64,000 bases of DNA from Acidimicrobiales bacterium (GTDB lineage Bacteria > Actinomycetota > Acidimicrobiia > Acidimicrobiales > RAAP-2), in assembly GCA_036521415.1 (NCBI GenBank), contig DATDHU010000154.1, forward strand, positions 10,741 to 74,740, written 5' to 3'. Under the pieces are notes generated by a model. The model saw only the letters and a program-made list of their open reading frames with translations. It searched no databases and was not told the DNA's origin. Shown in pieces: positions 1 through 39,425 of the stretch (its first letter is position 1; every line of letters begins with the position of its first letter). The position numbers and the translations under genes were made by a program.

Positions 1-1715
1 GCAGAGGCCACCAGGGCGCCGACGCCACCCTCGATCACCCCGTCCTCCGCGGTGAGCACGACACTGTGTCGCCAGGCATCGTCGATCATGCGCGGGTCCA
101 ACGGAGAGGCCACGCGCACGTCCCACACGGTGGCGTCCACGCCCACGGCAGCCAGGAGCTCGGCCGCCTGCTCGCACGCCGCCACCTGCTTCCCCACGCC
201 GAGCAGGCAGACGTCTGCTCCTCCACGAATGCGCCGCCCGGTCACGCCGCTCCCGGTGACCGGTCCCCGGGCCGCCTCGGTCTTGGGCCAGCGAATGGCG
301 ACCGGCCCTGAGGTGATGGCCAAGGCCTCATGGAGCATGACGGCCACCTCGTCGTAGTTGGCCGGTGCGAAGACCGTCATCCCCGGCACCTTGGTGAGGA
401 GGGCGAGGTCGAGCAAGCCGTGGTGGCTGGGCCCGTCCTCGCCGGTCACGCCGGCTCGATCGATGCAGAAGATCACCGGCAGCCGGTGCAGGCCCACGTC
501 GTAGTAGACCTGGTCCCAGGCCCGGTTGAGGAAGGTCGAGTAGATGGCCACAACTGGTCGGAGCCCGCCCATGGCCATGCCCGCCGCCGCGGTCACCGCG
601 TGCTGCTCGGCGATGCCCACATCGAAGAAGCGGTCGGGGTAGCGGTCGCGGAAGGGAGCAAGACCGGTGGGCCCGGGCATCGCCGCAGTGAGGGCGACCA
701 CCTCGGGCCGGGCCTCGGCCTCGGCCAACAGAGCGGCCGTGAAGGCGTGGGTGTAGCTGGGACCGGCGCCGGGCTTCTGGGTGGCGATTCCGGTGGCCGG
801 GTCGAACGGGCCGATGTCGTGCAGGCACTTGTCCTCGTCGTCCTCGGCCGGTGCGTACCCGCGCCCCTTGGTGGTGTGGACGTGGAGCACCACCGGCCCC
901 GGACGACCGGCCACGGCGCGCAGCGCGCACTCCAGCCGGGCGATGTCATGGCCGTCCACCGGGCCCTCGTAGGACAGGCCGAGCGCCTCGAAGAAGGGGG
1001 CCACCAACGCCGCGTTGTCGCCGGCGTGTCCACCAGGGTGGGCAACAGCGTCGCGGCCAGGTTCAGGGTGGGCACGGCCGGCGGTCGACAGCCGGGAAAC
1101 GGTCGGGGCGTAAGACCGTCCGTTGTCATTCACGATGATCACCACGGGCGTGCCCGTCATGCCGATGTTGTTCAGCGCCTCGTAGGCCAGCCCGCCGGTG
1201 AGGGCACCATCGCCGACCACGGCGATCACCGGACGGTCGTCGCCGCACAGCCGCCGGGCCCGGGCCAACCCGTAGGCGTAGGACAGCGCGGTGGAGGCAT
1301 GGCTGTTCTCCACCAGGTCGTGGTCCGACTCGAGCCGGTTTGGATAGCCCGACAGGCCGCCTCGTTGGCGCAACTGGCCGAAGGCGCCAACCCGTCCGGT
1401 CACCAGCTTGTGCACGTAGGCCTGATGGCCGGTGTCCCAGACCAGGGCGTCTGCAGGTGAGTCGAAGACCCGGTGCAGGGCCAGGGTCAGCTCGACGATG
1501 CCGAGGTTGGAGCCGAGGTGGCCCCCGGTCTCGGCCACCGAGTCGACCAGGAACCGCCGGATGGTGGCAGCCAGCTGCTCGAGCTCGGGGCCGTCCATGG
1601 CCCGTAGGGAGGCGAGGTCGAGCCGGTCGAGCAGGTCACCGCACGGCTCCGCCGGATCGACAAGGGCCACGCCCTCGTCGACAACAGTCGGCGCGTCAGC
1701 GGCAACGGTGCTCAT
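1..1715 (-). CDS. dxs: 1-deoxy-D-xylulose-5-phosphate synthase; C-terminal ~60 aa lie beyond the left window edge
   Basis: Absent from the ORF track because the frame stays open to the window edge. Reverse translation from ATG 1715 gives MSTVAADAP.., the ThDP motif VIAVVGDGALTGGLAYEALNN, GIAEQHAVTAAAGMA and DRAGVTGEDGPSHHG. Starts 11 nt after the hpnH stop. Confidence 0.9.
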   Translation of the reverse strand, partial: MSTVAADAPTVVDEGVALVDPAEPCGDLLDRLDLASLRAMDGPELEQLAATIRRFLVDSVAETGGHLGSNLGIVELTLALHRVFDSPADALVWDTGHQAYVHKLVTGRVGAFGQLRQRGGLSGYPNRLESDHDLVENSHASTALSYAYGLARARRLCGDDRPVIAVVGDGALTGGLAYEALNNIGMTGTPVVIIVNDNGRSYAPTVSRLSTAGRAHPEPGRDAVAHPGGHAGDNAALVAPFFEALGLSYEGPVDGHDIARLECALRAVAGRPGPVVLHVHTTKGRGYAPAEDDEDKCLHDIGPFDPATGIATQKPGAGPSYTHAFTAALLAEAEARPEVVALTAAMPGPTGLAPFRDRYPDRFFDVGIAEQHAVTAAAGMAMGGLRPVVAIYSTFLNRAWDQVYYDVGLHRLPVIFCIDRAGVTGEDGPSHHGLLDLALLTKVPGMTVFAPANYDEVAVMLHEALAITSGPVAIRWPKTEAARGPVTGSGVTGRRIRGGADVCLLGVGKQVAACEQAAELLAAVGVDATVWDVRVASPLDPRMIDDAWRHSVVLTAEDGVIEGGVGALVAS

Positions 1716-1726
1716 GGTCACCGGGA

Positions 1727-2731
1727 TCAATGGGTGTTGACGAGGGCTCGTAGGGATTGGCGCAAGGAGTCCATGCTGGCGATCACCGACGTGGGCTCGT
1801 ACCCACAGTGGGCCATGCAGTTGGCACAGCGCGGGTCCTTTCCCCGGCCGTAGGCGTCCCAGTCGGTCGTCTCCACCAGCTCCTTGTAGCTGGTGGCATA
1901 GCCGTCGGACATCAGGTAGCAGGGGCGCTGCCAGCCCAGAACCGAGTAGCTGGGGATCCCCCAGGCGGTGCAGGAGAACTCCTGCTTGCCCTCGAGGAAG
2001 TCCAGGAACAGGGGCGAATGGTTAAGGCGCCACTTCTTGCGCTTCCCGTCGAAGGCGTCCCGGAACAGCTTCCGGGTCTGGTCGACACCGAGGAAGTGCT
2101 CCTGGTCGGGGGCCTTCTCGTAGGCGTAGGCGGGTGAGATCATCATGGCGTCGACCTTGAGGTCGTCGTTCAAGAAGTCGAGAACGTCCCGGACGGTCTT
2201 GGGCGAGTCGGTATTGAAGAACGTGGAGTTGGTCGTCACCCGGAAGCCCTTCTCCTTCGCCTCCCGGATGGCCGCCACCGCCTCGTCGAACACTCCCTCC
2301 CGGTCGACGGCGGCGTCGTGGCGCTCCTTCATGCCGTCGATGTGCACGACCCAGGAGAAGAAGTGCGACGGCGCGAAGCGCTCCAGGCGGCGCCGGAGCA
2401 GCACGGCGTTGGTGCACAGGTAGACGTACACCTTGCGGCGGATGAGCTCGGCCACGATGCGCTCCATGTCCGGGTGGAGGAGAGGCTCACCCCCGGCGAT
2501 GGAGACCATGGGCGTCCCGGTCTCCTCCACTGCTTGGAGGATGTCCTCCATCGACAGCCGCTTCCTGAGGATGTCGGTGGGATGCTGGATCTTTCCGCAA
2601 CCCGGGCACGAGAGGTTGCATGCGAACAGTGGCTCGATCTCCACGATGAAGGGATAGTGCTTGACGCCCTTCAGCTTCTGCCGGAGCAGATGGGATCCGA
2701 TCTTCATGTTCTGTCGGAGAGGTATGGGCAT
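1727..2731 (-). CDS. hpnH: adenosylhopane synthase (radical SAM) HpnH
   Basis: ORF 1727..2944 trimmed to internal ATG 2731 (MPIPLRQNMKIGSHLLRQKLKG..). Has the radical-SAM motif CNLSCPGC and end-to-end HpnH-like sequence (WGIPSYSVLGWQRPCYLM, CANCMAHCGYEPT). The ATG overlaps the upstream stop (TAATG). Confidence 0.9.
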   Translation of the reverse strand: MPIPLRQNMKIGSHLLRQKLKGVKHYPFIVEIEPLFACNLSCPGCGKIQHPTDILRKRLSMEDILQAVEETGTPMVSIAGGEPLLHPDMERIVAELIRRKVYVYLCTNAVLLRRRLERFAPSHFFSWVVHIDGMKERHDAAVDREGVFDEAVAAIREAKEKGFRVTTNSTFFNTDSPKTVRDVLDFLNDDLKVDAMMISPAYAYEKAPDQEHFLGVDQTRKLFRDAFDGKRKKWRLNHSPLFLDFLEGKQEFSCTAWGIPSYSVLGWQRPCYLMSDGYATSYKELVETTDWDAYGRGKDPRCANCMAHCGYEPTSVIASMDSLRQSLRALVNTH

Positions 2732-4212
2732 TAGCGCACCGCCTGAGGTAGAGAGAAATGGGCACTTTCTTCCGTGGTCCGATGCTCGGTGACGACCACC
2801 GGACCGAGGTCCGAGACGCTGTCGATCACGCGTTGGACTAGGAATTCCGGAGCAGACGCACCGGCGGTGATGCCGACGGTCTCCACGCCGTCGAACCAGC
2901 TCAACCGGAGGTGCGTCTCGTCTTCGATCAGCTCGGTCCGGCAACCCTCGCGCCTGGCCACCTCGACCAGACGGGCCGTGTTGGACGAATTGGCCGAACC
3001 GACCACCAAGAGCAGGTCGCAGAGGTCGACCATGCCCCGCACCGCGTCCTGGCGGTTCTGGGTGGCGTAACAGATGTCGTTGGAGTTGGGGCCGTGCAGG
3101 TCGGGGAACCGGTTGCGCAGGGCGGCGATGATCTCGGCCGTCTCGTCGGTGGCCAGGGTGGTCTGGGTGAGGTAGGCCACCTCGGCACCGGGCTCGATGT
3201 CGAGGGCGGCCACGTCCGCCGGTCGCTCGACCAGGGCCATGGGCGCCTCGCCCAGCGTGCCGGCGATCTCCTCGTGACCCTCGTGGCCGATCAGGACGAT
3301 CTGGTAGTCGTGGGAGGCAAAGCGGCGGGCCTCGTGGTGGACCTTGGTCACCAGCGGGCAGGTGGCGTCGATGACCGACAGGTCGCTGCGGCGGCCCGCC
3401 TCCTCGCGGACCTTAGGCGAGACGCCGTGGGCGGCGAGGACGACGACGGCCCCGGCCGGCACCTCGTCGAGCTCCTCCACGAAGATCGCCCCCTTCCCCT
3501 CTAGGTCGGCGACGACATGGCTGTTGTGCACGATCTGCCGGCGGACGTAGACCGGCGAGCCGAAGCGTTCGATGGCCCGCTCCACGATCTCGATGGCCCG
3601 CTCGACGCCGGCACAGAACGAGCGCGGCGCGGCGAGCACGACGTGGTGCCGGCCGACAGCGCCGGCCCAGCGTTCCAGCGAGGGTCGCACCCGCATCAAG
3701 GTGGCGAGGGCCCGCATCCCGCCGACCGCCATGTCGGCCAGGCCACCCTCGGCCGTGTCCGAGATGGCGCGCACAACGGCTACGGGCTGGTCGAGCGGGA
3801 GCTGATCGACCAACCAGGCCGACTCCATGTCCACCGCGATGGCGCCGGTAGCGGCGAGAGCCGCCCTCGACGCATCCCGGACGAGGTGGAGTGAGGACAC
3901 GATCGGCCCGGTACGGACGTCAAGGCCCTTCTGGCGGAGGTCGTCGGCGATCCGCTCGGCCCCGGGAAGCGACCGGACGATGCTCCCGTCGACGGTGCGC
4001 ACCTCGGTCGCCACCACCAGTTGCCCGAGCGGCAGATCGGGATCCAACCCACCGGCCACGCCGACGAGGGCGATGGCCTGCGAGGAGGGCGAGGCGGCCA
4101 GCCTCGCCCCCGAAGCGGTCGCCTTGGCCCGGCCCATCCCGATGCGGGGCACGGCCCCGCCGACAGCCATGGCCTCGATGCGTAGCGGCGACACGACGGT
4201 GAGGTCAGCCAT
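2731..4212 (-). CDS. hpnG/ispH: fusion protein: hopanoid-associated phosphorylase/nucleosidase (HpnG-like) N-terminal domain + 4-hydroxy-3-methylbut-2-enyl diphosphate reductase (IspH/LytB) C-terminal domain
   Basis: ORF 2731..4332 trimmed to ATG 4212 (MADLTVVSPLRIE..). The first ~225 aa have the PNP_UDP fold motifs GVAGGLDPDL, AVDMES and VRAISD. The last ~265 aa are IspH with all three cluster cysteines (SFCAGV, DATCPLVTKVH, NDICYATQNRQ). One uninterrupted frame. Confidence 0.85.
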   Translation of the reverse strand: MADLTVVSPLRIEAMAVGGAVPRIGMGRAKATASGARLAASPSSQAIALVGVAGGLDPDLPLGQLVVATEVRTVDGSIVRSLPGAERIADDLRQKGLDVRTGPIVSSLHLVRDASRAALAATGAIAVDMESAWLVDQLPLDQPVAVVRAISDTAEGGLADMAVGGMRALATLMRVRPSLERWAGAVGRHHVVLAAPRSFCAGVERAIEIVERAIERFGSPVYVRRQIVHNSHVVADLEGKGAIFVEELDEVPAGAVVVLAAHGVSPKVREEAGRRSDLSVIDATCPLVTKVHHEARRFASHDYQIVLIGHEGHEEIAGTLGEAPMALVERPADVAALDIEPGAEVAYLTQTTLATDETAEIIAALRNRFPDLHGPNSNDICYATQNRQDAVRGMVDLCDLLLVVGSANSSNTARLVEVARREGCRTELIEDETHLRLSWFDGVETVGITAGASAPEFLVQRVIDSVSDLGPVVVTEHRTTEESAHFSLPQAVR

Positions 4213-6229
4213 GGGTCCGCTCCGCAACGGCGCCGCCGGTCTTCCCGCCAAGGTGGCGGCTCTCCTGACCCACGCCAAGGTGGCGGCTGTCTTGCCTACC
4301 GCCAAGGTGGCGGCTGTCCTGCCTACCGCCAAGGTGGCGGCCGAGGGCCATCACCGGGAAGATCAGGCGGTACAGGTGGTAGTTGATGTAGAAGTCCCCA
4401 GGGAAGCCGGTGCCGGTGAACCAGGGCTCGTCCCAGGTCCCGTCGTCTCGCTGGGTGCCGACCAGGAACTCGATGCCGGCGTCGGCGGACGTCCCCTGGC
4501 GCCCGGCGGCGAGGAGGGCGAGGAGGGCCCAGGCCGTCTGGGAGGCGGTCGAGGTCCCTTGCCCGCCCAGGCTCGGGTCTCGGTAGGAGCGGAGGTCCTC
4601 ACCCCAGCCACCGTCGTGGTTCTGATGGGACTCGAGCCACCGGACCGCCTTGGCCAGAGCCGGGTGCTCGGGCCCGATGCCCGCCGCGGTGAGGGCCGGT
4701 ACCACGGCCCCGGTGCCGTAGACGTAGTTGGCTCCCCAGCGACCGAACCAGGAGCCGTCGGCCTCCTGCGCGTCGAGCAGCCACTGGACGCCGCGGTCCA
4801 TGGCCGGACCGCGGCGGCCCAGCACGGCCAGCATCTCGACCACGTGGGCGGTGACGTCCGCGCTCGGTGGGTCGATGAGCTCACCGAAGTCGCAGAAGGG
4901 GAGCTCCTCGCACAGGCCGCGGGTGTTGTCGGCGTCGAAGGCACCCCAGCCACCGTCGCGGCACTGCATCCCCTCGATCCAGGCCACGGCCCGGTCGATG
5001 GCCCCTTCGGCGGAGACGTCGCAGTGCCGGAGGGCCAGCACCACCTCGGCCGTGTCGTCGATGTCGGGGTAATGGTCGTTGGCGAACTCGAACGCCCACC
5101 CGCCGGGAGCGAGACGGGGCCGCCGGATGCTCCAGTCCCCCCTGATGGTGACCTCCTGGCCCAACAGCCAGGCGCCGGCCTCTCGCATGCCCTGGTCGGT
5201 GGGCAACGTGCCCGCATCGGCCAACCCGATGACGGCCAGGGCCGTGTCCCACACCGGTGACTGACAGGCCTCGAGGCGACGGCCGGCCTCGTCCTCGATG
5301 GTGAAGCCGTCCAGCCCGTCCAGGCCGGCGCGCATGACGGGATGATCGAGCGGGTAGCCCTGTAGATGCAGCGCCATGAGCGAATAGACCCAGGGAGGCT
5401 GGATCCCGCCCCAGGATCCGTCAGCCTCTTGGCGCTGCACGATCCATCGCTCGGCCCGCTGCAGTGCCAGCTTGCGCAGCACGGAGACGGGCCGGCGCTC
5501 GTAGACGTGGAGCAATCGGTCGAGCCGCTCGAAGCGCCTCCCCCACCGGCTGGTGGGCCTGTGCGGGGGCAGTGTCCCGGTCCGGAGCTCGTCGATGGTC
5601 ACCGGGATGGGGCGAACAGGTCGGTGGGCACTGATCACGGTTAGGGCGGCGACCGTCTGACGGGCCCAGCAACCAAAGTCGTAGATGTTGAGGGGCACCG
5701 ACGGCGGGAGGAGCATGAGCTCGGGCGGCATGACCGGGAGGTCCTCCCACGACCAGAGCCCGAACAGCGCCATCCAGATCCGGGTGAAGACCCGGCTGGC
5801 CTCCAGGCCGCCGGAATGGCGGACGAATCCCGCGGCCCGGGCCATGTGTGGCGCGTCGACTCCGTCGCCGGCCAGTCGGAGGGCCACGTAGGCCTCGATG
5901 GTGGTGGAGAGGTCCGGCGGGCCTCCGTGGAAGGTGGCCCAGGTCCCGTCGTCGCGCTGGCGGGAGCGGATCCACGTCGCCGTCCTCTGCGTCTGGTCAT
6001 CGGTGCGGATCCCGAGGAACTGGCGCAACAGGAGGTCTTCCGCCTCCATGGTGACGTTCGTCTCGAGCTCACCTTTCCACCAGCCGTCGGGATCCTGCAG
6101 CCGGCCCAGTGCGCCGACGGCGCGGGTGAGCGCTTCGCCCGCGGTCCGGTCGAGGCGGTGCCCGTCGGTGCCCGTGGCTTCGGCGTCAGGCGCCCGGTCG
6201 AAGACCGAGGAGCTGGTGGTGGCGGTCAT
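4205..6229 (-). CDS. shc: squalene-hopene cyclase with a repeat-extended C-terminus
   Basis: 674 aa with the DxDD motif (YPDIDDTAEVV) and QW-type repeats (RQRDDGTW, QEADGSWGG, QNHDGGWGE, QRDDGTWDE). The C-terminus carries about four copies of RHLGGRQDS. Confidence 0.93.
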   Translation of the reverse strand: MTATTSSSVFDRAPDAEATGTDGHRLDRTAGEALTRAVGALGRLQDPDGWWKGELETNVTMEAEDLLLRQFLGIRTDDQTQRTATWIRSRQRDDGTWATFHGGPPDLSTTIEAYVALRLAGDGVDAPHMARAAGFVRHSGGLEASRVFTRIWMALFGLWSWEDLPVMPPELMLLPPSVPLNIYDFGCWARQTVAALTVISAHRPVRPIPVTIDELRTGTLPPHRPTSRWGRRFERLDRLLHVYERRPVSVLRKLALQRAERWIVQRQEADGSWGGIQPPWVYSLMALHLQGYPLDHPVMRAGLDGLDGFTIEDEAGRRLEACQSPVWDTALAVIGLADAGTLPTDQGMREAGAWLLGQEVTIRGDWSIRRPRLAPGGWAFEFANDHYPDIDDTAEVVLALRHCDVSAEGAIDRAVAWIEGMQCRDGGWGAFDADNTRGLCEELPFCDFGELIDPPSADVTAHVVEMLAVLGRRGPAMDRGVQWLLDAQEADGSWFGRWGANYVYGTGAVVPALTAAGIGPEHPALAKAVRWLESHQNHDGGWGEDLRSYRDPSLGGQGTSTASQTAWALLALLAAGRQGTSADAGIEFLVGTQRDDGTWDEPWFTGTGFPGDFYINYHLYRLIFPVMALGRHLGGRQDSRHLGGRQDSRHLGVGQESRHLGGKTGGAVAERTHG
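4247..4345 (-). repeat. 27-bp in-frame tandem repeat, ~3.7 copies, at the 3' end of shc
   Basis: The core gccaaggtggcggc recurs at 4247, 4274, 4301 and 4328, exactly 27 bp apart. It encodes ..ALGRHLGGRQDSRHLGGRQDSRHLGVGQESRHLGGKTGG.. on the minus strand. Confidence 0.9.
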
Positions 6230-7227
6230 CGGTCGCGCTCGGTCACGAACTGGGCGATGGCCTCCAACTGGGAGCGGGGGCCGGGGAGGAGGTCGGCCCG
6301 GTCCAGAGACGTGAGCGCCGCGTCCAGGTGGGACTCGGCGATGCCCATGGCCTCGTCGCGAGCGCCGCTCTCCTCGATGAGCCGGGCGGCCTCGATGACG
6401 TCGTCTCCCGCCAGCGGGCGACCGAGCAGTGCGGCGAGCTCGGGACGCCGACCGTCGACGCGGGCCAGTGCGGTGACGACCGGGAGGGTCATCTTGTGCT
6501 GGACCAGATCGTTGCCGGCCGGCTTACCGGTCTGGCTCGGCTCGCCCCAGATCCCCAGCACGTCGTCGATGGCCTGGAAGGCGATGCCCACGTTGCGGCC
6601 GAAGTCGGCTAGGGCGGCCACGGTGGGGTCGGGGGCACCGACCAGCAGGGCGCCGAGCGACGAGGCACAGGACAACAGGGCCCCTGTCTTCCCGGTGGCC
6701 ATGCGCAGGCACTCCTCCACAGTCACCGAGGCTCGGGTCTCGAAGGCCATGTCGTCGGCCTGGCCGGCGATCATCTCCTGGGTGGCCGTGGTCAGGGCGG
6801 CCGTGGCCCGCACCCGCTCGGGGGTGGGATCGTCGAGCAGCACCTGGGTAGCCAGCGCGGCCAATGCATCCCCGGCGATGATGGCCGAGCCGATCCCGAA
6901 CTGGGCCCAGACGGTCGGGCGATGACGCCGGTCGCGGTCCTCGTCGATGATGTCGTCGTGGAGCAGCGAGAAGTTGTGGACCAGCTCGATGGCCACGGCT
7001 CCGGGGATGCCCGTCTCCTCGGTGCCGCCGGCCGCCGCCGCCGAAACCAGCACCAGTGCGGCCCGGACCCGCTTGCCCCCGCCGGCCAGGTGATGGCGGA
7101 CTGGCTCGGCCAGCTCGGGGCTGAGGCGGTCGACAGCCGCATCGAGAGCCGGAGTGACGAGCGCGGCGGCGCGCCCCAGGGACTCGGGGAGGAGTGCGGG
7201 AACCGTCGTTGCCGGAGAGGCGGTCAT
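6226..7227 (-). CDS. polyprenyl (farnesyl/geranylgeranyl) diphosphate synthase of the hopanoid cluster
   Basis: ORF 6226..7629 trimmed to ATG 7227 (MTASPATTVPALL..), which overlaps the hpnE stop (ATGA). First Asp-rich motif LLHDDIIDED, second FQAIDDVLG. Confidence 0.85.
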   Translation of the reverse strand: MTASPATTVPALLPESLGRAAALVTPALDAAVDRLSPELAEPVRHHLAGGGKRVRAALVLVSAAAAGGTEETGIPGAVAIELVHNFSLLHDDIIDEDRDRRHRPTVWAQFGIGSAIIAGDALAALATQVLLDDPTPERVRATAALTTATQEMIAGQADDMAFETRASVTVEECLRMATGKTGALLSCASSLGALLVGAPDPTVAALADFGRNVGIAFQAIDDVLGIWGEPSQTGKPAGNDLVQHKMTLPVVTALARVDGRRPELAALLGRPLAGDDVIEAARLIEESGARDEAMGIAESHLDAALTSLDRADLLPGPRSQLEAIAQFVTERDR

Positions 7228-8621
7228 TGTGGGACTCCTTCGAGCCTGGGGGCCGGGACTCCTTGGAGATGGAGGGGCGGGTTGTCGCGTTCGCTGCTCT
7301 GCTCGCTGCCGGCCTCGGCCAGGGCCACCGCCGCAGCCGACTGCCCGCTGCGCACCGCCCCCTCCATGGTCGCCGGCCAACCCGTGTCGCACCAGGCGCC
7401 AGCCAGCGCCAGGCCTCGGAGGCCGGTCCGCGAGGAGGGCCGCAATGCGGCCGTCCCAGGAACAGCGCGGAAGGTGGCTGCGCGCTCGCGGCTGACCGTG
7501 CCGTCGACAAGGCGAGCGTGGCGGGCCGCCGGGAGCAGTTCGTCGAGAGCCTGGCGGAACGAGCGCACTAGGTCCTCGGGGCGCTGGCCGATGACGGCAT
7601 CGGCCCCTGACAACGAGATGGCCAGGCACTGCCCTTGAGCCAGGCCGGACGAGGCCGTGCGGTCGAACAGGAACTGGATCGGGGTGCCCATGCCGGCGGC
7701 CATGGGGAGGTCGGTCACCCGGCGATCGAGGACCAGGTGCACGTTGACGATGGGCGAGGTGCCCAGTCCGTCGACGGCGGGCAGGACGCCCTTTGGAACG
7801 AGGGCAGCGGTCACCTCGGGCGGTGTGGCGACGATCACCGAATCAGCGCGCACCGGGCCGTCGGGAGTGGCGACGGTCCAGCTGCCGTCAGTGGCGCGGG
7901 AGACCCCCTCGACCCGGGACCCGAGCCGCACGTCGACGCCGGACGCCGACAGAGCCCGCGACCCGTTCTCGGCGTGCAGCTGCCGCAGGGGTACCTGGGA
8001 CCACCCGATGTCACCGCCGTCGGCGCTGTCGAGCAGGCCGGTGCGGAAGACCTTGACCGCCAAGGCCAGGGACGCCTCGGCGGCGGGCACATTGACCGTG
8101 GGAAGGGTGATGAGGTCCCACAGACGCTCGACGGCCCTGGCGCTCTGCCCGTGATCGGCCAGCCACCGCCCGAAGGTGATGCGGTCGAGTGCGGGGTCGT
8201 GAGGGTCGAGGCGGCGCATGGCCAGGACGGCGCGCCCCAGCCCGGCCCGTTCCCCCACACTGAGGAAGCGGTAGCGGGCCAACGAACCGGCGAGGTGGAA
8301 GGGGGCGGGCAGGTCGGTGCGGGTGATGGACGCGGTGATCCCCCCCGGCGCCAGGACGGGCACCTCGAGCCGGGGCTGGAGCGACACCTCGCCCGTGGCC
8401 CCGATGCGTTCCAGGAATCCGCGGTAGGCGGTGCAGCACCGCATGAAGACGTGCTGGCCGTTGTCGAACCAGAGACCGTTGCGGCGGAACGACCAGGTGA
8501 GCCCGCCCAACCGGGAGCGCCGCTCGAAGACGACGACGTCGGCCCCCCCGTCGACGGCGGCCAGTGCAGCACTGACGCCGGCCAGTCCCCCTCCGATGAC
8601 CGCTATGCGCGGGCAGGTCAC
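7224..8621 (-). CDS. hpnE: hydroxysqualene dehydroxylase (FAD amine-oxidase family) HpnE
   Basis: GTG 8621 overlaps the hpnD stop (GTGA) and gives VTCPRIAVIGGGLAGVSAALAA.. (dinucleotide fold). Phytoene-desaturase-like throughout and in the expected position after hpnC-hpnD. Confidence 0.8.
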   Translation of the reverse strand: MTCPRIAVIGGGLAGVSAALAAVDGGADVVVFERRSRLGGLTWSFRRNGLWFDNGQHVFMRCCTAYRGFLERIGATGEVSLQPRLEVPVLAPGGITASITRTDLPAPFHLAGSLARYRFLSVGERAGLGRAVLAMRRLDPHDPALDRITFGRWLADHGQSARAVERLWDLITLPTVNVPAAEASLALAVKVFRTGLLDSADGGDIGWSQVPLRQLHAENGSRALSASGVDVRLGSRVEGVSRATDGSWTVATPDGPVRADSVIVATPPEVTAALVPKGVLPAVDGLGTSPIVNVHLVLDRRVTDLPMAAGMGTPIQFLFDRTASSGLAQGQCLAISLSGADAVIGQRPEDLVRSFRQALDELLPAARHARLVDGTVSRERAATFRAVPGTAALRPSSRTGLRGLALAGAWCDTGWPATMEGAVRSGQSAAAVALAEAGSEQSSERDNPPLHLQGVPAPRLEGVPQ

Positions 8622-9457
8622 GGAGTGCCACCGGAGATGCTGCGCAGGGCGATGTACCCCTTCTCCCATGCCGGCAGCGACACCCGCCCGCGGGTCACGG
8701 CGATCGGGTCCCGCTCGATGCGAGCCAGCAGGCGGCGATAGATGCCGGCCATGGCCGAGACACAGGCGCGGCTCCTCCGGTCGAGCAGTGGGAGCAGCCG
8801 GAGCCCTCGATCGAACCACTCACGCGCCCGCACGCACTCGAAGGCCACGAGGTCAGCCACGGCCGACGGCGGCCCGCTCAGGTCGGGCGGGCAGCCCACC
8901 GCTTCTGCGTCCTCGGTCGGCAGGTAGACGCGACCACGCTCGCCGTCCTCGATGATGTCCCGGAGGATGTTGGTCAGCTGGAGGGCCACGCCGAGGTCGT
9001 CGGCCAGCGGGTTGGCTACGGTCACGTCGTCCACCCCGAAGATGGCGAGTGACAGGCGGCCCACCGAGCCGGCTACCCGGCGGCAGTAGCCCACCAGGTC
9101 GTCGATGGTGGCGTACTCCGCCCCCCCGACGTCCATGACACAGCCGTCGATCAACTCGCCGAACGCAGCCATGGGCAAGCCGTAGCGCGCCGCGGCATGG
9201 GCGACACCGGCGAGCACCGGGTCGTCGGTCTCGGCCGAGACGGGCTCCAGGTCCTTGCGGACGGCGGCCAGCTCCTCGAGACGCTGGGCGGCGGGCGCGT
9301 CGCCGTCGCCGATGTCGTCAATCCTCCTGGCCAGGGCGTAGACAGCCGACAGGGCGTGCCGCTCGGGCTCTTTGAGCAGGCGGATGCCGTAGGCGAAGTT
9401 CTTGGCCTCACGACGGGTGATGGCCTCGCACTCGAGATAGGCGGCATCGGCATTCAT
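8618..9457 (-). CDS. hpnD: presqualene diphosphate synthase HpnD (squalene/phytoene synthase family)
   Basis: 279 aa with AKNFAYGIRLL, YALARRIDDIGDGD and LQLTNILRDIIED. Second gene of a tandem SQS/PSY pair; ATGA overlap with hpnC. Confidence 0.85.
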   Translation of the reverse strand: MNADAAYLECEAITRREAKNFAYGIRLLKEPERHALSAVYALARRIDDIGDGDAPAAQRLEELAAVRKDLEPVSAETDDPVLAGVAHAAARYGLPMAAFGELIDGCVMDVGGAEYATIDDLVGYCRRVAGSVGRLSLAIFGVDDVTVANPLADDLGVALQLTNILRDIIEDGERGRVYLPTEDAEAVGCPPDLSGPPSAVADLVAFECVRAREWFDRGLRLLPLLDRRSRACVSAMAGIYRRLLARIERDPIAVTRGRVSLPAWEKGYIALRSISGGTP

Positions 9458-10401
9458 GCGGCGGCCCCACCTTCGGATGATGGGAAACGGCTCGATGTCG
9501 CGGCCTGGTCTGCCGACGCGGTTTGGTCAGGTCCGCCTTGTTCGGGCGATGCGAAGAGGGTGGTCGCCAGGCGGGCCACGATCCCGAGGGGCCGGGGCTT
9601 GCACCGCGTGCCCAAGACGTCGTACCCGGCGCGCTGGATTGCATCGAGGGCGGCTTCGCCGCCGCCCACGAAACCGGCGACCGCGGCGCGCGGTTGCCAG
9701 GGCAGGCCTCCGCTCAAGGGCCGACCCGCGGCCAGGCGACGGCGCGCCCGGTTGACGTGTACCGCCACCAGGCGTTGGAGCGAGGGGCCGGCACGGGGGG
9801 CCAACAACTGGTCCTCAGTGACCCCGAAGGCCGCCCGGTCACGGGCCGGGAGATAGATCCTGCCGCGGATCGCGTCTTCGCCGATGTCTTGGAGGTGCTC
9901 TGTCAGCTGCAGCCCGATGCACACCTCGTCGGACAGCGCGACCCGAGCCGGTGTGCTAGCGCCGAACACCAAGAGCACCAACTGGCCGACCGGAACGGCC
10001 GAGAGCCGGCAGTAGTCGGCCAGCTCCTCGATCGTCTCGTAACGCCGGACCGTCTGGTCGACCCGGTTGGCTTCGATCAGGGCGCGAAAGGGATCGAGGG
10101 GCAGGCTCAGTTCGGACAAGGTCGGCATCAGCCGCACGAGGATGGGATGGGTGGCCGTTCCCTCGTTGGCCCGCTCGAGCTCGGACTCGAGCCAGTCGAG
10201 CTGGGCCGGGCGGTCGCCTTCGACCTCGTCGCCGATGTCGTCGGCCAAGCGGGCGAACCCGTAGATGGCCATCAAGTGGGAGCGCACCCGGCGGGGGAGG
10301 AAGAACGAGGCGACGGGGAAGTTCTCCGAGCGGGCCTGACCCAGGATCGCGTCGGCATCAAGGTCTGGGATCGATGGTGAAACTCCTAGGGAGGATGGCA
10401 C
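9454..10401 (-). CDS. hpnC: hydroxysqualene synthase HpnC (squalene/phytoene synthase family)
   Basis: ENFPVASFFLPRRVR, IYGFARLADDIGDE and GLQLTEHLQDIGED. GTG start at 10401; a slightly later start cannot be excluded. Confidence 0.8.
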   Translation of the reverse strand: MPSSLGVSPSIPDLDADAILGQARSENFPVASFFLPRRVRSHLMAIYGFARLADDIGDEVEGDRPAQLDWLESELERANEGTATHPILVRLMPTLSELSLPLDPFRALIEANRVDQTVRRYETIEELADYCRLSAVPVGQLVLLVFGASTPARVALSDEVCIGLQLTEHLQDIGEDAIRGRIYLPARDRAAFGVTEDQLLAPRAGPSLQRLVAVHVNRARRRLAAGRPLSGGLPWQPRAAVAGFVGGGEAALDAIQRAGYDVLGTRCKPRPLGIVARLATTLFASPEQGGPDQTASADQAATSSRFPSSEGGAAA

Positions 10402-38696: not shown

Positions 38697-39425
38697 GTGC
38701 CGCCCCGCCACGTCGTCGTCCTGGCGCCCATGCCGCTCGAGATGGAGGCCGTCGTAGCCGCCTTCGGGCTCAGCCCCACGAGCGACGAACTGGGCGCACC
38801 GGCTGACGGCCGCGTCGGCACCTCGGCCGTAACCGCTCTCCACATCGGCATGGGACCCTCCTCGACACGAGCGGCGATGTCCCGGTTGTTCGATACGGCC
38901 GATCCTGACCGGGTGCCGGTCGATCACGTGATCATCGCCGGCATCTGCGGCGGTCTCGACCCCGATCTCGGCGTCGGCACCCTCGTGAATCCGGAGTTGG
39001 TCATCGACCACACGAGCGGGGCCTCCTACCGCCATGACCCACCGGGGGACGCACCGCGGGCGGGGAAGCTCGTCACCACCGAGGGGGTGAGCTTCGACCG
39101 CCAACTGAGCCTGCAGTTCTTCCAGGAGGGCTGCCTCGGGGTGGACATGGAATCCTCGGCGGTGGCCGAGGTGTGCGAAGCCCACGGGTGCCCTTGGTCG
39201 GTCTACCGGTGCATCAGCGACCGGCATTTCGACGACCTCCTCGACGAGCGGATCGTTGCGATGACCAACCCTGACGGCTCGGCCAATTTGGACGAAGTCG
39301 AACGACTCATGGCCGCCGATCCCGAGCTGGCCGGGAAGCTCGAGCGCCTGGCCCGCGACACCACGCTCGCGGCCCGGCTCGCAGCCGAAGCCGCATTTCG
39401 GGGGTGCGTTGCCCTCGACGGCTGA
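38697..39425 (+). CDS. PNP_UDP_1 family nucleosidase (MTAN / futalosine hydrolase / HpnG-like)
   Basis: VVVLAPMPLEMEA, IIAGICGGLDPDL, GVDMESSAVAEV and VYRCISDRHFDD. Paralogous to the HpnG half at 2731..4212. Confidence 0.8.
   Translation: MPPRHVVVLAPMPLEMEAVVAAFGLSPTSDELGAPADGRVGTSAVTALHIGMGPSSTRAAMSRLFDTADPDRVPVDHVIIAGICGGLDPDLGVGTLVNPELVIDHTSGASYRHDPPGDAPRAGKLVTTEGVSFDRQLSLQFFQEGCLGVDMESSAVAEVCEAHGCPWSVYRCISDRHFDDLLDERIVAMTNPDGSANLDEVERLMAADPELAGKLERLARDTTLAARLAAEAAFRGCVALDG

What the first reader, a model, noticed from the sequence alone, without database searches (positions are those of the whole stretch)
2731..4212. In-frame fusion of the HpnG-type nucleosidase with IspH
A single 493-aa frame joins two catalytically unrelated enzymes.
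- The N-terminal half is a complete PNP_UDP-fold domain (GGLDPDL, DMES, ISD).
- The C-terminal half is a complete IspH with all three Fe-S cysteines.
- The junction is near ..LERWAGAVGRHHVVLAAPRSFCAGV.. (around nt 3530).

HpnG acts on adenosylhopane late in side-chain formation. IspH makes IPP/DMAPP at the start of the pathway. Fusing first-step precursor supply to a late tailoring step is unusual. It implies co-regulated stoichiometry or a physical complex.
Basis: partly seen in the sequence, partly recalled or inferred. Interest (0 to 1): 0.6.

Follow-up and report, generated by a model that had tools for sequence, protein, structure and literature searches.

The report
HpnG-IspH fusion enzyme, hopanoid operon
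One 493-residue protein in this Acidimicrobiales hopanoid-lipid operon really joins the adenine-removing side-chain enzyme HpnG to a complete second copy of the isoprenoid enzyme IspH. The fusion is old and common in Actinomycetota, and databases label it only "IspH". I found no sign of new chemistry.

Summary
Window 2731-4212 (minus strand) is one uninterrupted 493-codon frame. Residues 1-188 are a compact PNP_UDP/MTAN-fold domain and residues 191-493 are a full IspH. The junction lies at about nt 3640-3670, not 3530.

The gene sits in a translationally coupled operon: hpnC-hpnD-hpnE-polyprenyl synthase-shc-[fusion]-hpnH-dxs.

It is not an assembly artefact. Seventy of the 80 best-matching loci from other species' genomes carry the same in-frame junction. 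They include Amycolatopsis and Pseudonocardia isolates, Thermoleophilia and many Acidimicrobiia.

The N-domain is the positional and sequence counterpart of the stand-alone gene between shc and hpnH in large, unnamed Streptomyces-like genomes. It keeps MTAN-type catalytic residues. The IspH half keeps every Fe-S and HMBPP-binding residue.

All 12 other fusion-bearing genomes tested also have a separate IspH. This MAG lacks one only because of an assembly gap. So the fused IspH is a cluster-dedicated extra copy.

A 2015 paper listed this architecture for Frankia only, with no hopanoid link. This scan has already found it in at least 19 other genomes.

Most likely it is a merger of neighbouring genes into a bifunctional enzyme whose halves work independently. 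Interest is modest.

The parts
2731..4212 (-). hpnG::ispH fusion ORF, 493 aa plus TAA stop (2731-2733)
   Evidence: ORF list and translation. Pfam PNP_UDP_1 plus LYTB in one frame. NCBIfam IspH equivalogs score 422-426 bits.
3649..4212 (-). N-terminal HpnG-like domain (residues 1-188), a compact MTAN/PNP_UDP fold
   Evidence: PNP_UDP_1 39.8 bits. TIGR03468 HpnG 71 bits, below its 187 cut-off. phmmer aligns AVDMES and VVRAISD with S. aureus MTAN AVEMEA and VVRAVSD. Foldseek gives TM(target) 0.67 to MTAN 3bl6. E13, D128, M129, E130 and R148 are invariant and D152 is at least 90% conserved in 36 fusions.
3640..3669 (-). Domain junction: W182-AGAVGRHH-V191, with no flexible linker
   Evidence: Codon positions computed. 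In the AlphaFold model, helix 176-185 runs directly into IspH strand 189-195, with block-mean pLDDT of 96 and 88.
2734..3642 (-). C-terminal IspH domain (residues 191-493)
   Evidence: LYTB 307.7 bits. 48-49% identity to E. coli IspH 3ke8 by Foldseek. C12, H41, H74, C96, H124, E126, T167, C197, S225, N227 and S269 equivalents are all aligned and conserved. Foldseek TM(target) 0.94, rmsd 1.5 A.
4205..6229 (-). shc (squalene-hopene cyclase). Its stop overlaps the fusion start by 8 nt
   Evidence: SQHop_cyclase_N and _C, 417 and 458 bits. Coordinates.
1727..2731 (-). hpnH (adenosylhopane synthase). Its start overlaps the fusion stop (TAATG)
   Evidence: TIGR03470 510 bits, cut-off 225. Overlap sequence shown.
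3..1730 (-). dxs, an extra MEP-pathway entry enzyme. It runs off the window end
   Evidence: DXP_synthase_N plus transketolase domains.
6226..7227 (-). Polyprenyl diphosphate synthase
   Evidence: PF00348 200 bits. Start position.
7224..8621 (-). hpnE-like amine oxidase/desaturase
   Evidence: ORF. GTG start overlapping the hpnD stop. Conserved position in 60+ related loci. Named by synteny only; no family scan was run here.
8618..10401 (-). hpnD (8618-9457) and hpnC (9454-10401), squalene synthase-like pair
   Evidence: ORFs. Conserved as tblastn neighbours in related loci. Named by synteny only; no family scan was run here.

Best explanation
This is a bifunctional protein made by an ancient merger of two neighbouring genes of the actinobacterial hopanoid operon.

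The N-terminal 188 residues are the cluster's HpnG. This MTAN-fold nucleosidase or phosphorylase removes adenine from adenosylhopane, the product of the next gene, hpnH.

The C-terminal 303 residues are a genuine [4Fe-4S] HMBPP reductase (IspH). It is a second, cluster-dedicated copy. Together with the operon's own dxs and polyprenyl synthase, it raises IPP/DMAPP supply when hopanoids are made.

The two halves most likely catalyse their own reactions independently. The fusion fixes 1:1 co-expression, and the halves probably pack as one compact body.

Shown here: the architecture, conservation of the catalytic residues, the operon context, the distribution and the paralogue status. Inferred: both enzyme activities and their independence.
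For: - One frame carries both Pfam domains.
- The IspH half is 48-49% identical to E. coli IspH by Foldseek. Every cluster ligand and HMBPP-binding residue is aligned and invariant in 36 fusions at 50-88% identity. The fold matches at TM 0.94.
- The N-domain aligns its DMES and RAISD motifs with MTAN catalytic motifs and has the MTAN fold. E13, D128, M129, E130 and R148 are invariant and D152 is at least 90% conserved.
- Stand-alone homologues of 183-218 aa occupy the same slot between shc and hpnH.
- 70 of 80 related loci are fused in frame, nearly all in an shc-fusion-hpnH context.
- 12 of 12 other fusion-bearing genomes also have a plain IspH.
- Cluster IspHs form one group separate from housekeeping IspHs, with support 89/92.
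- Start and stop codons overlap on both sides of the gene.
- AlphaFold gives pLDDT 92.8 and pTM 0.88. An Amycolatopsis orthologue with 51% identity gives 93.4 and 0.88.
- Literature: hpnG knock-outs accumulate adenosylhopane (PMC13459092). ispH clusters with shc and hpnH in Acidobacteria too (PMC5462960).
Against: - No activity was measured for either half.
- The N-domain scores only 71 bits against TIGR03468 HpnG (cut-off 187.1), so family membership rests on synteny and residue conservation.
- A second, distantly related PNP_UDP gene (29% identity) at window 38697-39425 scores equally on the HpnG model and could in principle do the HpnG job.
- The high pTM in both models hints at a fixed interdomain packing. 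Independent action neither predicts nor excludes that.
- In this MAG no second IspH is assembled, although synteny places the missing copy in a gap.
Confidence: 0.8

Rival explanations
1. The fusion reflects functional coupling or new chemistry. The IspH-like half might act on the HpnG product, for example in the still unassigned conversion of ribosylhopane to bacteriohopanetetrol. Alternatively the HpnG half might tether or regulate IspH at the membrane-bound hopanoid machinery.
For: - The fusion has been kept across at least three classes with essentially no linker.
- pTM is 0.88 in two orthologues, which suggests a fixed interdomain arrangement.
- The fused IspH is always an extra copy, so it would be free to specialise.
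- The enzyme for ribosylhopane to BHT is not established (PMC12583986).
Against: - All HMBPP-binding and catalytic residues of IspH are invariant, with 48-49% identity to E. coli IspH.
- Reduction of an aldehyde is not IspH-type chemistry.
- Unfused versions exist within the same clade: G243 has shc-ispH-hpnH with no HpnG domain, and many clusters have HpnG without IspH. Neither half therefore needs the other in cis.
- The operon also carries dxs, which fits simple precursor boosting.
Confidence: 0.08
2. The N-terminal domain is a degenerate, non-catalytic remnant with only a structural or regulatory role. The real HpnG would then be the separate 242-aa PNP_UDP protein at window 38697-39425.
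For: - The N-domain is below the HpnG model cut-off and short for the fold (188 aa against about 230).
- The stand-alone paralogue scores 73.9 bits on the same model over a longer stretch.
Against: - MTAN-type catalytic positions are invariant or nearly so in 36 divergent fusions: E13, E130, R148 and D152.
- Stand-alone orthologues of the same short length sit in the hpnG slot of Streptomyces-like clusters.
- The paralogue shares only 29% identity with the N-domain and lies 34 kb from the operon.
Confidence: 0.07
3. Sequencing or assembly artefact: two separate genes were joined by a missed stop codon or a frameshift in this MAG.
For: - The genome is a fragmented MAG (154 contigs, 87% complete, 7% contamination).
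- Reads could not be checked.
- One related MAG (L055) does show a frameshift right at the junction.
Against: - The same in-frame junction occurs in 70 other loci, including isolate genomes and a relative with 90% nucleotide identity.
- More than 100 protein clusters of about 490 aa carry both domains.
Confidence: 0.01

Closest known systems
PNP/UDP phosphorylase-IspH fusion listed for Frankia sp. QA3, EUN1f and EAN1pec (Rao et al. 2015, Chem Sci, PMC4746011, Fig. 2d)
   Same: Same two Pfam families and, by the paper's 'UDP-IspH' label, the same order. Same phylum.
   Different: [quoted passage not shown] Here it lies in a hopanoid operon of an Acidimicrobiales MAG and belongs to a family spread over at least three classes. 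I did not retrieve the Frankia sequences, so membership of the same clade is untested.
Stand-alone actinobacterial HpnG between shc and hpnH (Streptomyces SCO6765/orf14 type; Liu et al. 2014, cited in PMC13459092 and PMC12583986)
   Same: Same operon slot, about 39-46% identity over tblastn matches of 90-166 residues, similar length (183-218 aa), same conserved motifs.
   Different: It is not fused. Those clusters have a 1.0-1.3 kb gap between hpnH and dxs instead of ispH; from memory this is ispH's sister gene ispG in S. coelicolor, and that was not tested.
Proteobacterial HpnG (TIGR03468, hopanoid-associated phosphorylase)
   Same: PNP_UDP fold, hopanoid cluster context, presumed removal of adenine from adenosylhopane.
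   Different: Only 71 bits against a cut-off of 187.1, so it is a divergent actinobacterial lineage. Conserved E13, E130, R148 and D152 resemble the MTAN hydrolase residue set more than a phosphorylase phosphate site. This last point is inference.
E. coli IspH/LytB (PDB 3ke8) and unfused ispH in hopanoid clusters (Acidobacteria SD1, PMC5462960)
   Same: 48-49% identity, all catalytic residues, same fold. ispH sitting next to shc and hpnH is a known cross-phylum pattern.
   Different: Here IspH carries an N-terminal HpnG domain and is a second copy beside a housekeeping IspH.
Other IspH 'Rosetta stone' fusions: IspH-RPS1 and IspH-UbiA (PMC4746011)
   Same: IspH fused to a protein of another function, and conserved in many species.
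   Different: Those partners are C-terminal and have no hopanoid connection.

Membership tests
IspH / LytB (PF02401, TIGR00216) | Full-length profile match above the curated cut-off | tested here: met
   PF02401 307.7 bits vs 24.5, profile positions 1-266 of 267. TIGR00216 304.4 vs 187.85. NF002188 422 vs 420.
IspH / LytB (PF02401, TIGR00216) | Three cysteine ligands of the [4Fe-4S] cluster (E. coli C12, C96, C197) | tested here: met
   C200, C285 and C381 align with them and are invariant in 36 fusions.
IspH / LytB (PF02401, TIGR00216) | HMBPP-binding and proton-relay residues (H41, H74, H124, E126, T167, S225, N227, S269) | tested here: met
   All are identical in the phmmer alignment to 3ke8. 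H229, H262, H313, E315, T351, S409, N411 and S453 are invariant.
IspH / LytB (PF02401, TIGR00216) | Three-domain trefoil fold | tested here: met
   Foldseek TM(target) 0.94, rmsd 1.5 A to 3ke8/3szu, from a model with pLDDT 92.8.
IspH / LytB (PF02401, TIGR00216) | HMBPP reductase activity | not testable with these tools
   Needs an enzyme assay or complementation.
HpnG (hopanoid-associated phosphorylase, TIGR03468) | Profile match above the curated cut-off | tested here: not met
   71 bits vs 187.1, covering profile positions 27-171 of 212. The same holds on the genome scan.
HpnG (hopanoid-associated phosphorylase, TIGR03468) | PNP_UDP / MTAN fold with conserved ribose- and base-binding acidic residues | tested here: met
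   PF01048 39.8 bits vs 25.1. MTAN motif alignment. Foldseek TMt 0.67. E130 invariant and D152 at least 90% conserved.
HpnG (hopanoid-associated phosphorylase, TIGR03468) | Encoded in a hopanoid cluster next to hpnH and shc | tested here: met
   shc-fusion-hpnH with overlapping stops and starts. Same context in about 70 related loci.
HpnG (hopanoid-associated phosphorylase, TIGR03468) | Cleaves adenine from adenosylhopane | not testable with these tools
   Known only from knock-outs in other organisms (PMC13459092).
Actinobacterial stand-alone HpnG (Streptomyces SCO6765 type) | Sequence homology and the same slot between shc and hpnH | tested here: met
   tblastn matches of about 39-46% identity over 90-166 residues (HMMER E 1e-13 to 1e-18) in Streptomyces-like genomes of 7.9-9.9 Mb. 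The gene order hpnE-PPS-shc-X-hpnH-gap-dxs was confirmed in five of them.
PNP_UDP-IspH fusion family (Frankia, PMC4746011) | N-terminal PNP_UDP domain and C-terminal IspH in one polypeptide | tested here: met
   The same holds in 70 of 80 related loci.
PNP_UDP-IspH fusion family (Frankia, PMC4746011) | Common descent with the Frankia proteins | not tested

The most novel reading that the evidence does not exclude
The rigid, linker-less packing kept across three actinobacterial classes might exist because the two halves are functionally coupled. Either the HpnG half docks a dedicated IspH onto the membrane-bound hopanoid assembly line as a metabolon, or the IspH-like half has acquired a role on the HpnG product in the still unassigned step from ribosylhopane to bacteriohopanetetrol.
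Probability: 0.07. Interest if true: 0.75.

Novelty: new member of a known kind. Interest (0 to 1): 0.3.

Why it matters
The main value is for annotation and pathway surveys. [quoted passage not shown] The HpnG TIGRFAM cut-off also misses the actinobacterial lineage: 71 bits against 187.

Surveys that rely on that model can therefore wrongly conclude that Actinomycetota lack the enzymes downstream of HpnH, as stated in bioRxiv 10.1101/2025.07.29.667474. Recognising the hidden HpnG half restores the genetic capacity for ribosylhopane and C35 bacteriohopanepolyols to Acidimicrobiia, Thermoleophilia and many Actinomycetes. That bears on the source assignment of hopane biomarkers in soils and sediments.

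It is also a clean natural example of a precursor-supply paralogue welded to a tailoring enzyme. Cultured carriers (Amycolatopsis, Pseudonocardia) are available for testing whether such fusions do more than fix stoichiometry.

Tried and rejected
- **Read-level check of the junction.** Cross-assembly conservation was used instead.
- **'The fused IspH is the only IspH of this organism'.** I considered this because PF02401 hits once in G000. I rejected it for three reasons. Relatives at 90% nucleotide identity have a second IspH. G000 contig C17 starts 5 kb downstream of the syntenic site. And 12 of 12 other carriers have two copies.
- **Interdomain interface or active-site distances.** Model coordinates are not exposed to the Python box. 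Only pTM (0.88 in two models) is available as an indirect indicator.
- **Direction of evolution.**
  - The IspH tree is compatible with one origin of the cluster/fused IspH.
  - In the N-domain tree, stand-alone HpnGs are interspersed with fused ones, with at least 4 changes forced.
  - Both trees are unrooted and the deep nodes are weak. 'One ancient fusion, several later losses of the IspH half' is therefore favoured but not shown.
- **Literature.** Five full-text searches for an explicit HpnG-IspH description turned up only the 2015 Frankia listing.
Full report
**Observation**

The minus strand of the window carries one open frame from ATG 4212 to TAA 2731-2733, encoding 493 aa.
- Pfam places PNP_UDP_1 on residues 21-157 (39.8 bits, cut-off 25.1) and LYTB on residues 191-466 (307.7 bits, profile 1-266 of 267) in that single frame.
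- NCBIfam IspH equivalogs score 422-426 bits. The HpnG model TIGR03468 scores 71 bits, well under its 187.1 cut-off.
- The frame stays open upstream to a TTG at 4332. Homologues start at the MADLTVV... methionine, and GGAG lies 7-10 nt before the ATG at 4212.
- The junction (W182 to V191) is at nt 3640-3669. Everything else it described is present.

**Context**

All genes from 10401 down to the window edge lie on the minus strand:

| Gene | Coordinates |
|---|---|
| hpnC | 9454-10401 |
| hpnD | 8618-9457 |
| hpnE | 7224-8621 |
| polyprenyl synthase | 6226-7227 |
| shc | 4205-6229 |
| fusion | 2731-4212 |
| hpnH | 1727-2731 |
| dxs | 3-1730 |

- hpnH scores 510 bits on TIGR03470.
- The shc stop overlaps the fusion start by 8 nt. 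The fusion stop overlaps the hpnH start (TAATG).
- The genome is a MAG of 3.3 Mb in 154 contigs, 87% complete with 7% contamination.
- Its nearest relatives are labelled Acidimicrobiaceae or Acidimicrobiales.

**Is it an artefact?**

Three other lines of evidence exclude a local frameshift or lost-stop error.
- The protein search returned more than 100 clusters at 60-90% identity and about 490 aa, most carrying both Pfam domains.
- A scan of one genome per species with an N-domain alignment returned 80 loci. In 70 of them the N-domain and an IspH lie in the same frame with no stop between.
- A relative with 90% nucleotide identity (G302) has the identical arrangement.

**Distribution**

The 70 fused loci come from several groups:
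- Acidimicrobiaceae and Acidimicrobiales MAGs.
- Thermoleophilia, including Solirubrobacterales and Thermoleophilaceae.
- Isolates: Amycolatopsis rubida, A. echigonensis, A. nivea, A. orientalis DSM 43388, A. circi and Pseudonocardia yunnanensis.
- Trebonia, Actinopolymorphaceae and Mycobacteriales MAGs.

Nearly all sit in an shc-fusion-hpnH context. Of the other ten loci:
- Nine have a stand-alone 183-218 aa homologue, mostly between shc and hpnH.
- One (L055) has a frameshift exactly at the junction.

Evenly drawn samples give lower frequencies.
- Of 400 Actinomycetota genomes, 18 carry an N-domain homologue. Five of these are fused. Ten come from one genus of 7.5-9.9 Mb genomes. In the five of those that I fetched (7.9-9.9 Mb), the homologue stands alone in an hpnE-PPS-shc-X-hpnH-gap-dxs layout, which matches the Streptomyces cluster.
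- Within the class, only 2 of 300 sampled species besides this one have the fusion. A third (G243) has shc-ispH-hpnH with no HpnG domain.

**What the halves are**

IspH half:
- It is 48-49% identical to E. coli IspH by Foldseek.
- C12, H41, H74, C96, H124, E126, T167, C197, S225, N227 and S269 are all matched and invariant across 36 fusions at 50-88% identity.
- The AlphaFold model (pLDDT 92.8) superposes on 3ke8/3szu at TM 0.94 and rmsd 1.5 A.

N-terminal half:
- It aligns its AVDMES and VVRAISD motifs with the AVEMEA and VVRAVSD motifs of S. aureus MTAN. It has the MTAN fold at TM(target) 0.67.
- E13, D128, M129, E130, R148 and W182 are invariant, and D152 is at least 90% conserved.
- Its 188 residues are short for an MTAN. 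They equal the length of the stand-alone actinobacterial homologues, so the domain is complete for its own lineage.
- By position, the E13/E130/R148/D152 set resembles the MTAN hydrolase tetrad. That would fit the literature remark that a phosphoribohopane product has never been observed (PMC13459092). This is inference only.
- I call the domain HpnG on three grounds: synteny, homology to the Streptomyces-type gene in the hpnG slot, and residue conservation. It formally fails the TIGR03468 cut-off.

**Is the fused IspH the housekeeping enzyme?**

No.
- G000 shows only one LYTB hit.
- All 12 other fusion-bearing genomes tested have exactly two IspH genes, one fused and one plain.
- In G302, the plain ispH lies in a region whose G000 counterpart is cut off. 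G000 contig C17 begins 5 kb downstream of the site. The missing copy is therefore an assembly gap.
- In the IspH tree, the 67 fused and 2 unfused cluster copies form one group (support 89/92). Pseudonocardiaceae housekeeping IspH is its sister, and Acidimicrobiia housekeeping IspH lies far away.
- So the cluster IspH is a distinct paralogue lineage travelling with the hopanoid operon.

**Evolution**

- The two unfused cluster IspHs nest inside fused clades.
- In the N-domain tree, stand-alone HpnGs are interspersed with fused ones. Well-supported branches force at least four changes.
- One old fusion followed by several losses of the IspH half is the simplest reading. The trees are unrooted and their deep nodes are weak, so repeated fusion is not excluded.
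- The junction has no linker. The last HpnG helix (176-185) runs into IspH strand 1 (189-195). That is what loss of a stop codon between two abutting or overlapping operon genes would give.

**Mechanism**

The best-supported reading, at about 0.8, is a bifunctional enzyme whose halves act independently.
- HpnG removes adenine from the adenosylhopane made by HpnH.
- The extra IspH, with the operon's own dxs and polyprenyl synthase, boosts precursor supply.
- Neither half needs the other in cis, because related clusters exist with only one of them.

AlphaFold gives pTM 0.88 for this protein and for the Amycolatopsis orthologue at 51% identity. That is higher than expected for two freely hinged domains and suggests a fixed packing. 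Coordinates and PAE were not available to test an interface.

A coupled or neo-functional role cannot be excluded, for example in the unassigned step from ribosylhopane to BHT (PMC12583986). The fully conserved HMBPP site argues against it.

**Comparison with what is known**

- Rao et al. 2015 (PMC4746011) listed a 'UDP/PNP phosphorylase'-IspH hybrid in three Frankia strains. They considered it a single-genus event, possibly random, and drew no hopanoid connection.
- Five full-text searches found no paper naming an HpnG-IspH fusion.
- A recent survey that annotated HpnG by its TIGRFAM concluded that Actinomycetota lack the enzymes downstream of HpnH. The sub-threshold score seen here explains that blind spot.
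- This scan has already reported the same fusion in at least 19 other genomes, including Rhodococcus, Intrasporangium and another Acidimicrobiales, with the same conclusions. I reached mine before reading those notes.

**Verdict**

The feature is real and conserved. It is under-annotated rather than unknown, and it is a new member of a known kind. Interest is 0.3.

Noticed in passing
window 38697-39425 (+): A second, stand-alone PNP_UDP-family gene (242 aa) with the same GGLDPDL, DMES and ISD motifs. It scores 73.9 bits on HpnG TIGR03468 and 54.8 on futalosine hydrolase, both below cut-off. It shares only 29% identity with the fusion's N-domain. Its role is unknown; MTAN, futalosine hydrolase or a back-up HpnG are possibilities.
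   Followed up: partly
G000 contig C17 position 1 (outside the window); L114 = G302:C2:446000-465900: The MAG lacks a housekeeping ispH. The syntenic region of a relative with 90% nucleotide identity shows that the gene would lie about 5 kb beyond the start of contig C17, so this is an assembly gap and not a gene loss.
   Followed up: yes
window 4205-4345 (-): The C-terminus of squalene-hopene cyclase ends in a tandemly repeated RHLGG(R/V/K)QDS-type tail, visible in the ORF translation. It runs up to the 8-nt overlap with the fusion start.
   Followed up: no
L015 (G243:C15:114232-118164): An Acidimicrobiia relative has shc followed directly by an unfused cluster-type ispH and then hpnH, with no HpnG domain at all. 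In the IspH tree it nests among fused copies, so the N-domain was probably lost secondarily.
   Followed up: partly
L055 around 4560-4600; L073 4004-6502: Two MFD-labelled MAGs deviate. L055 has a frameshift exactly at the HpnG/IspH junction. L073 has an 832-aa open frame running from the fusion on into hpnH, and its shc is broken into four HSPs. Both look like indel errors in the assemblies rather than biology; that cause is my guess, since the record titles do not state the sequencing technology.
   Followed up: no
TIGR03468 score on window 3649-4212 versus bioRxiv 10.1101/2025.07.29.667474: The curated HpnG model cut-off (187 bits) misses the actinobacterial HpnG lineage (about 71 bits here). 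A 2025-26 survey relying on that model states that Actinomycetota lack enzymes downstream of HpnH. This is probably an annotation blind spot.
   Followed up: partly
L123-L127 (large, Streptomyces-like genomes): The stand-alone HpnG of the Streptomyces-type cluster groups (95/91) with two fused sequences in the N-domain tree. This hints that the familiar stand-alone gene could descend from a fused ancestor. The tree is unrooted, so the direction is unknown.
   Followed up: partly
PDB 9ql0 (Foldseek hit list): A 2026 entry of E. coli IspH 'crystallized in the presence of adenosine hemisulfate'. It is curious next to a fusion whose partner handles an adenosyl lipid. I did not look into it.
   Followed up: no
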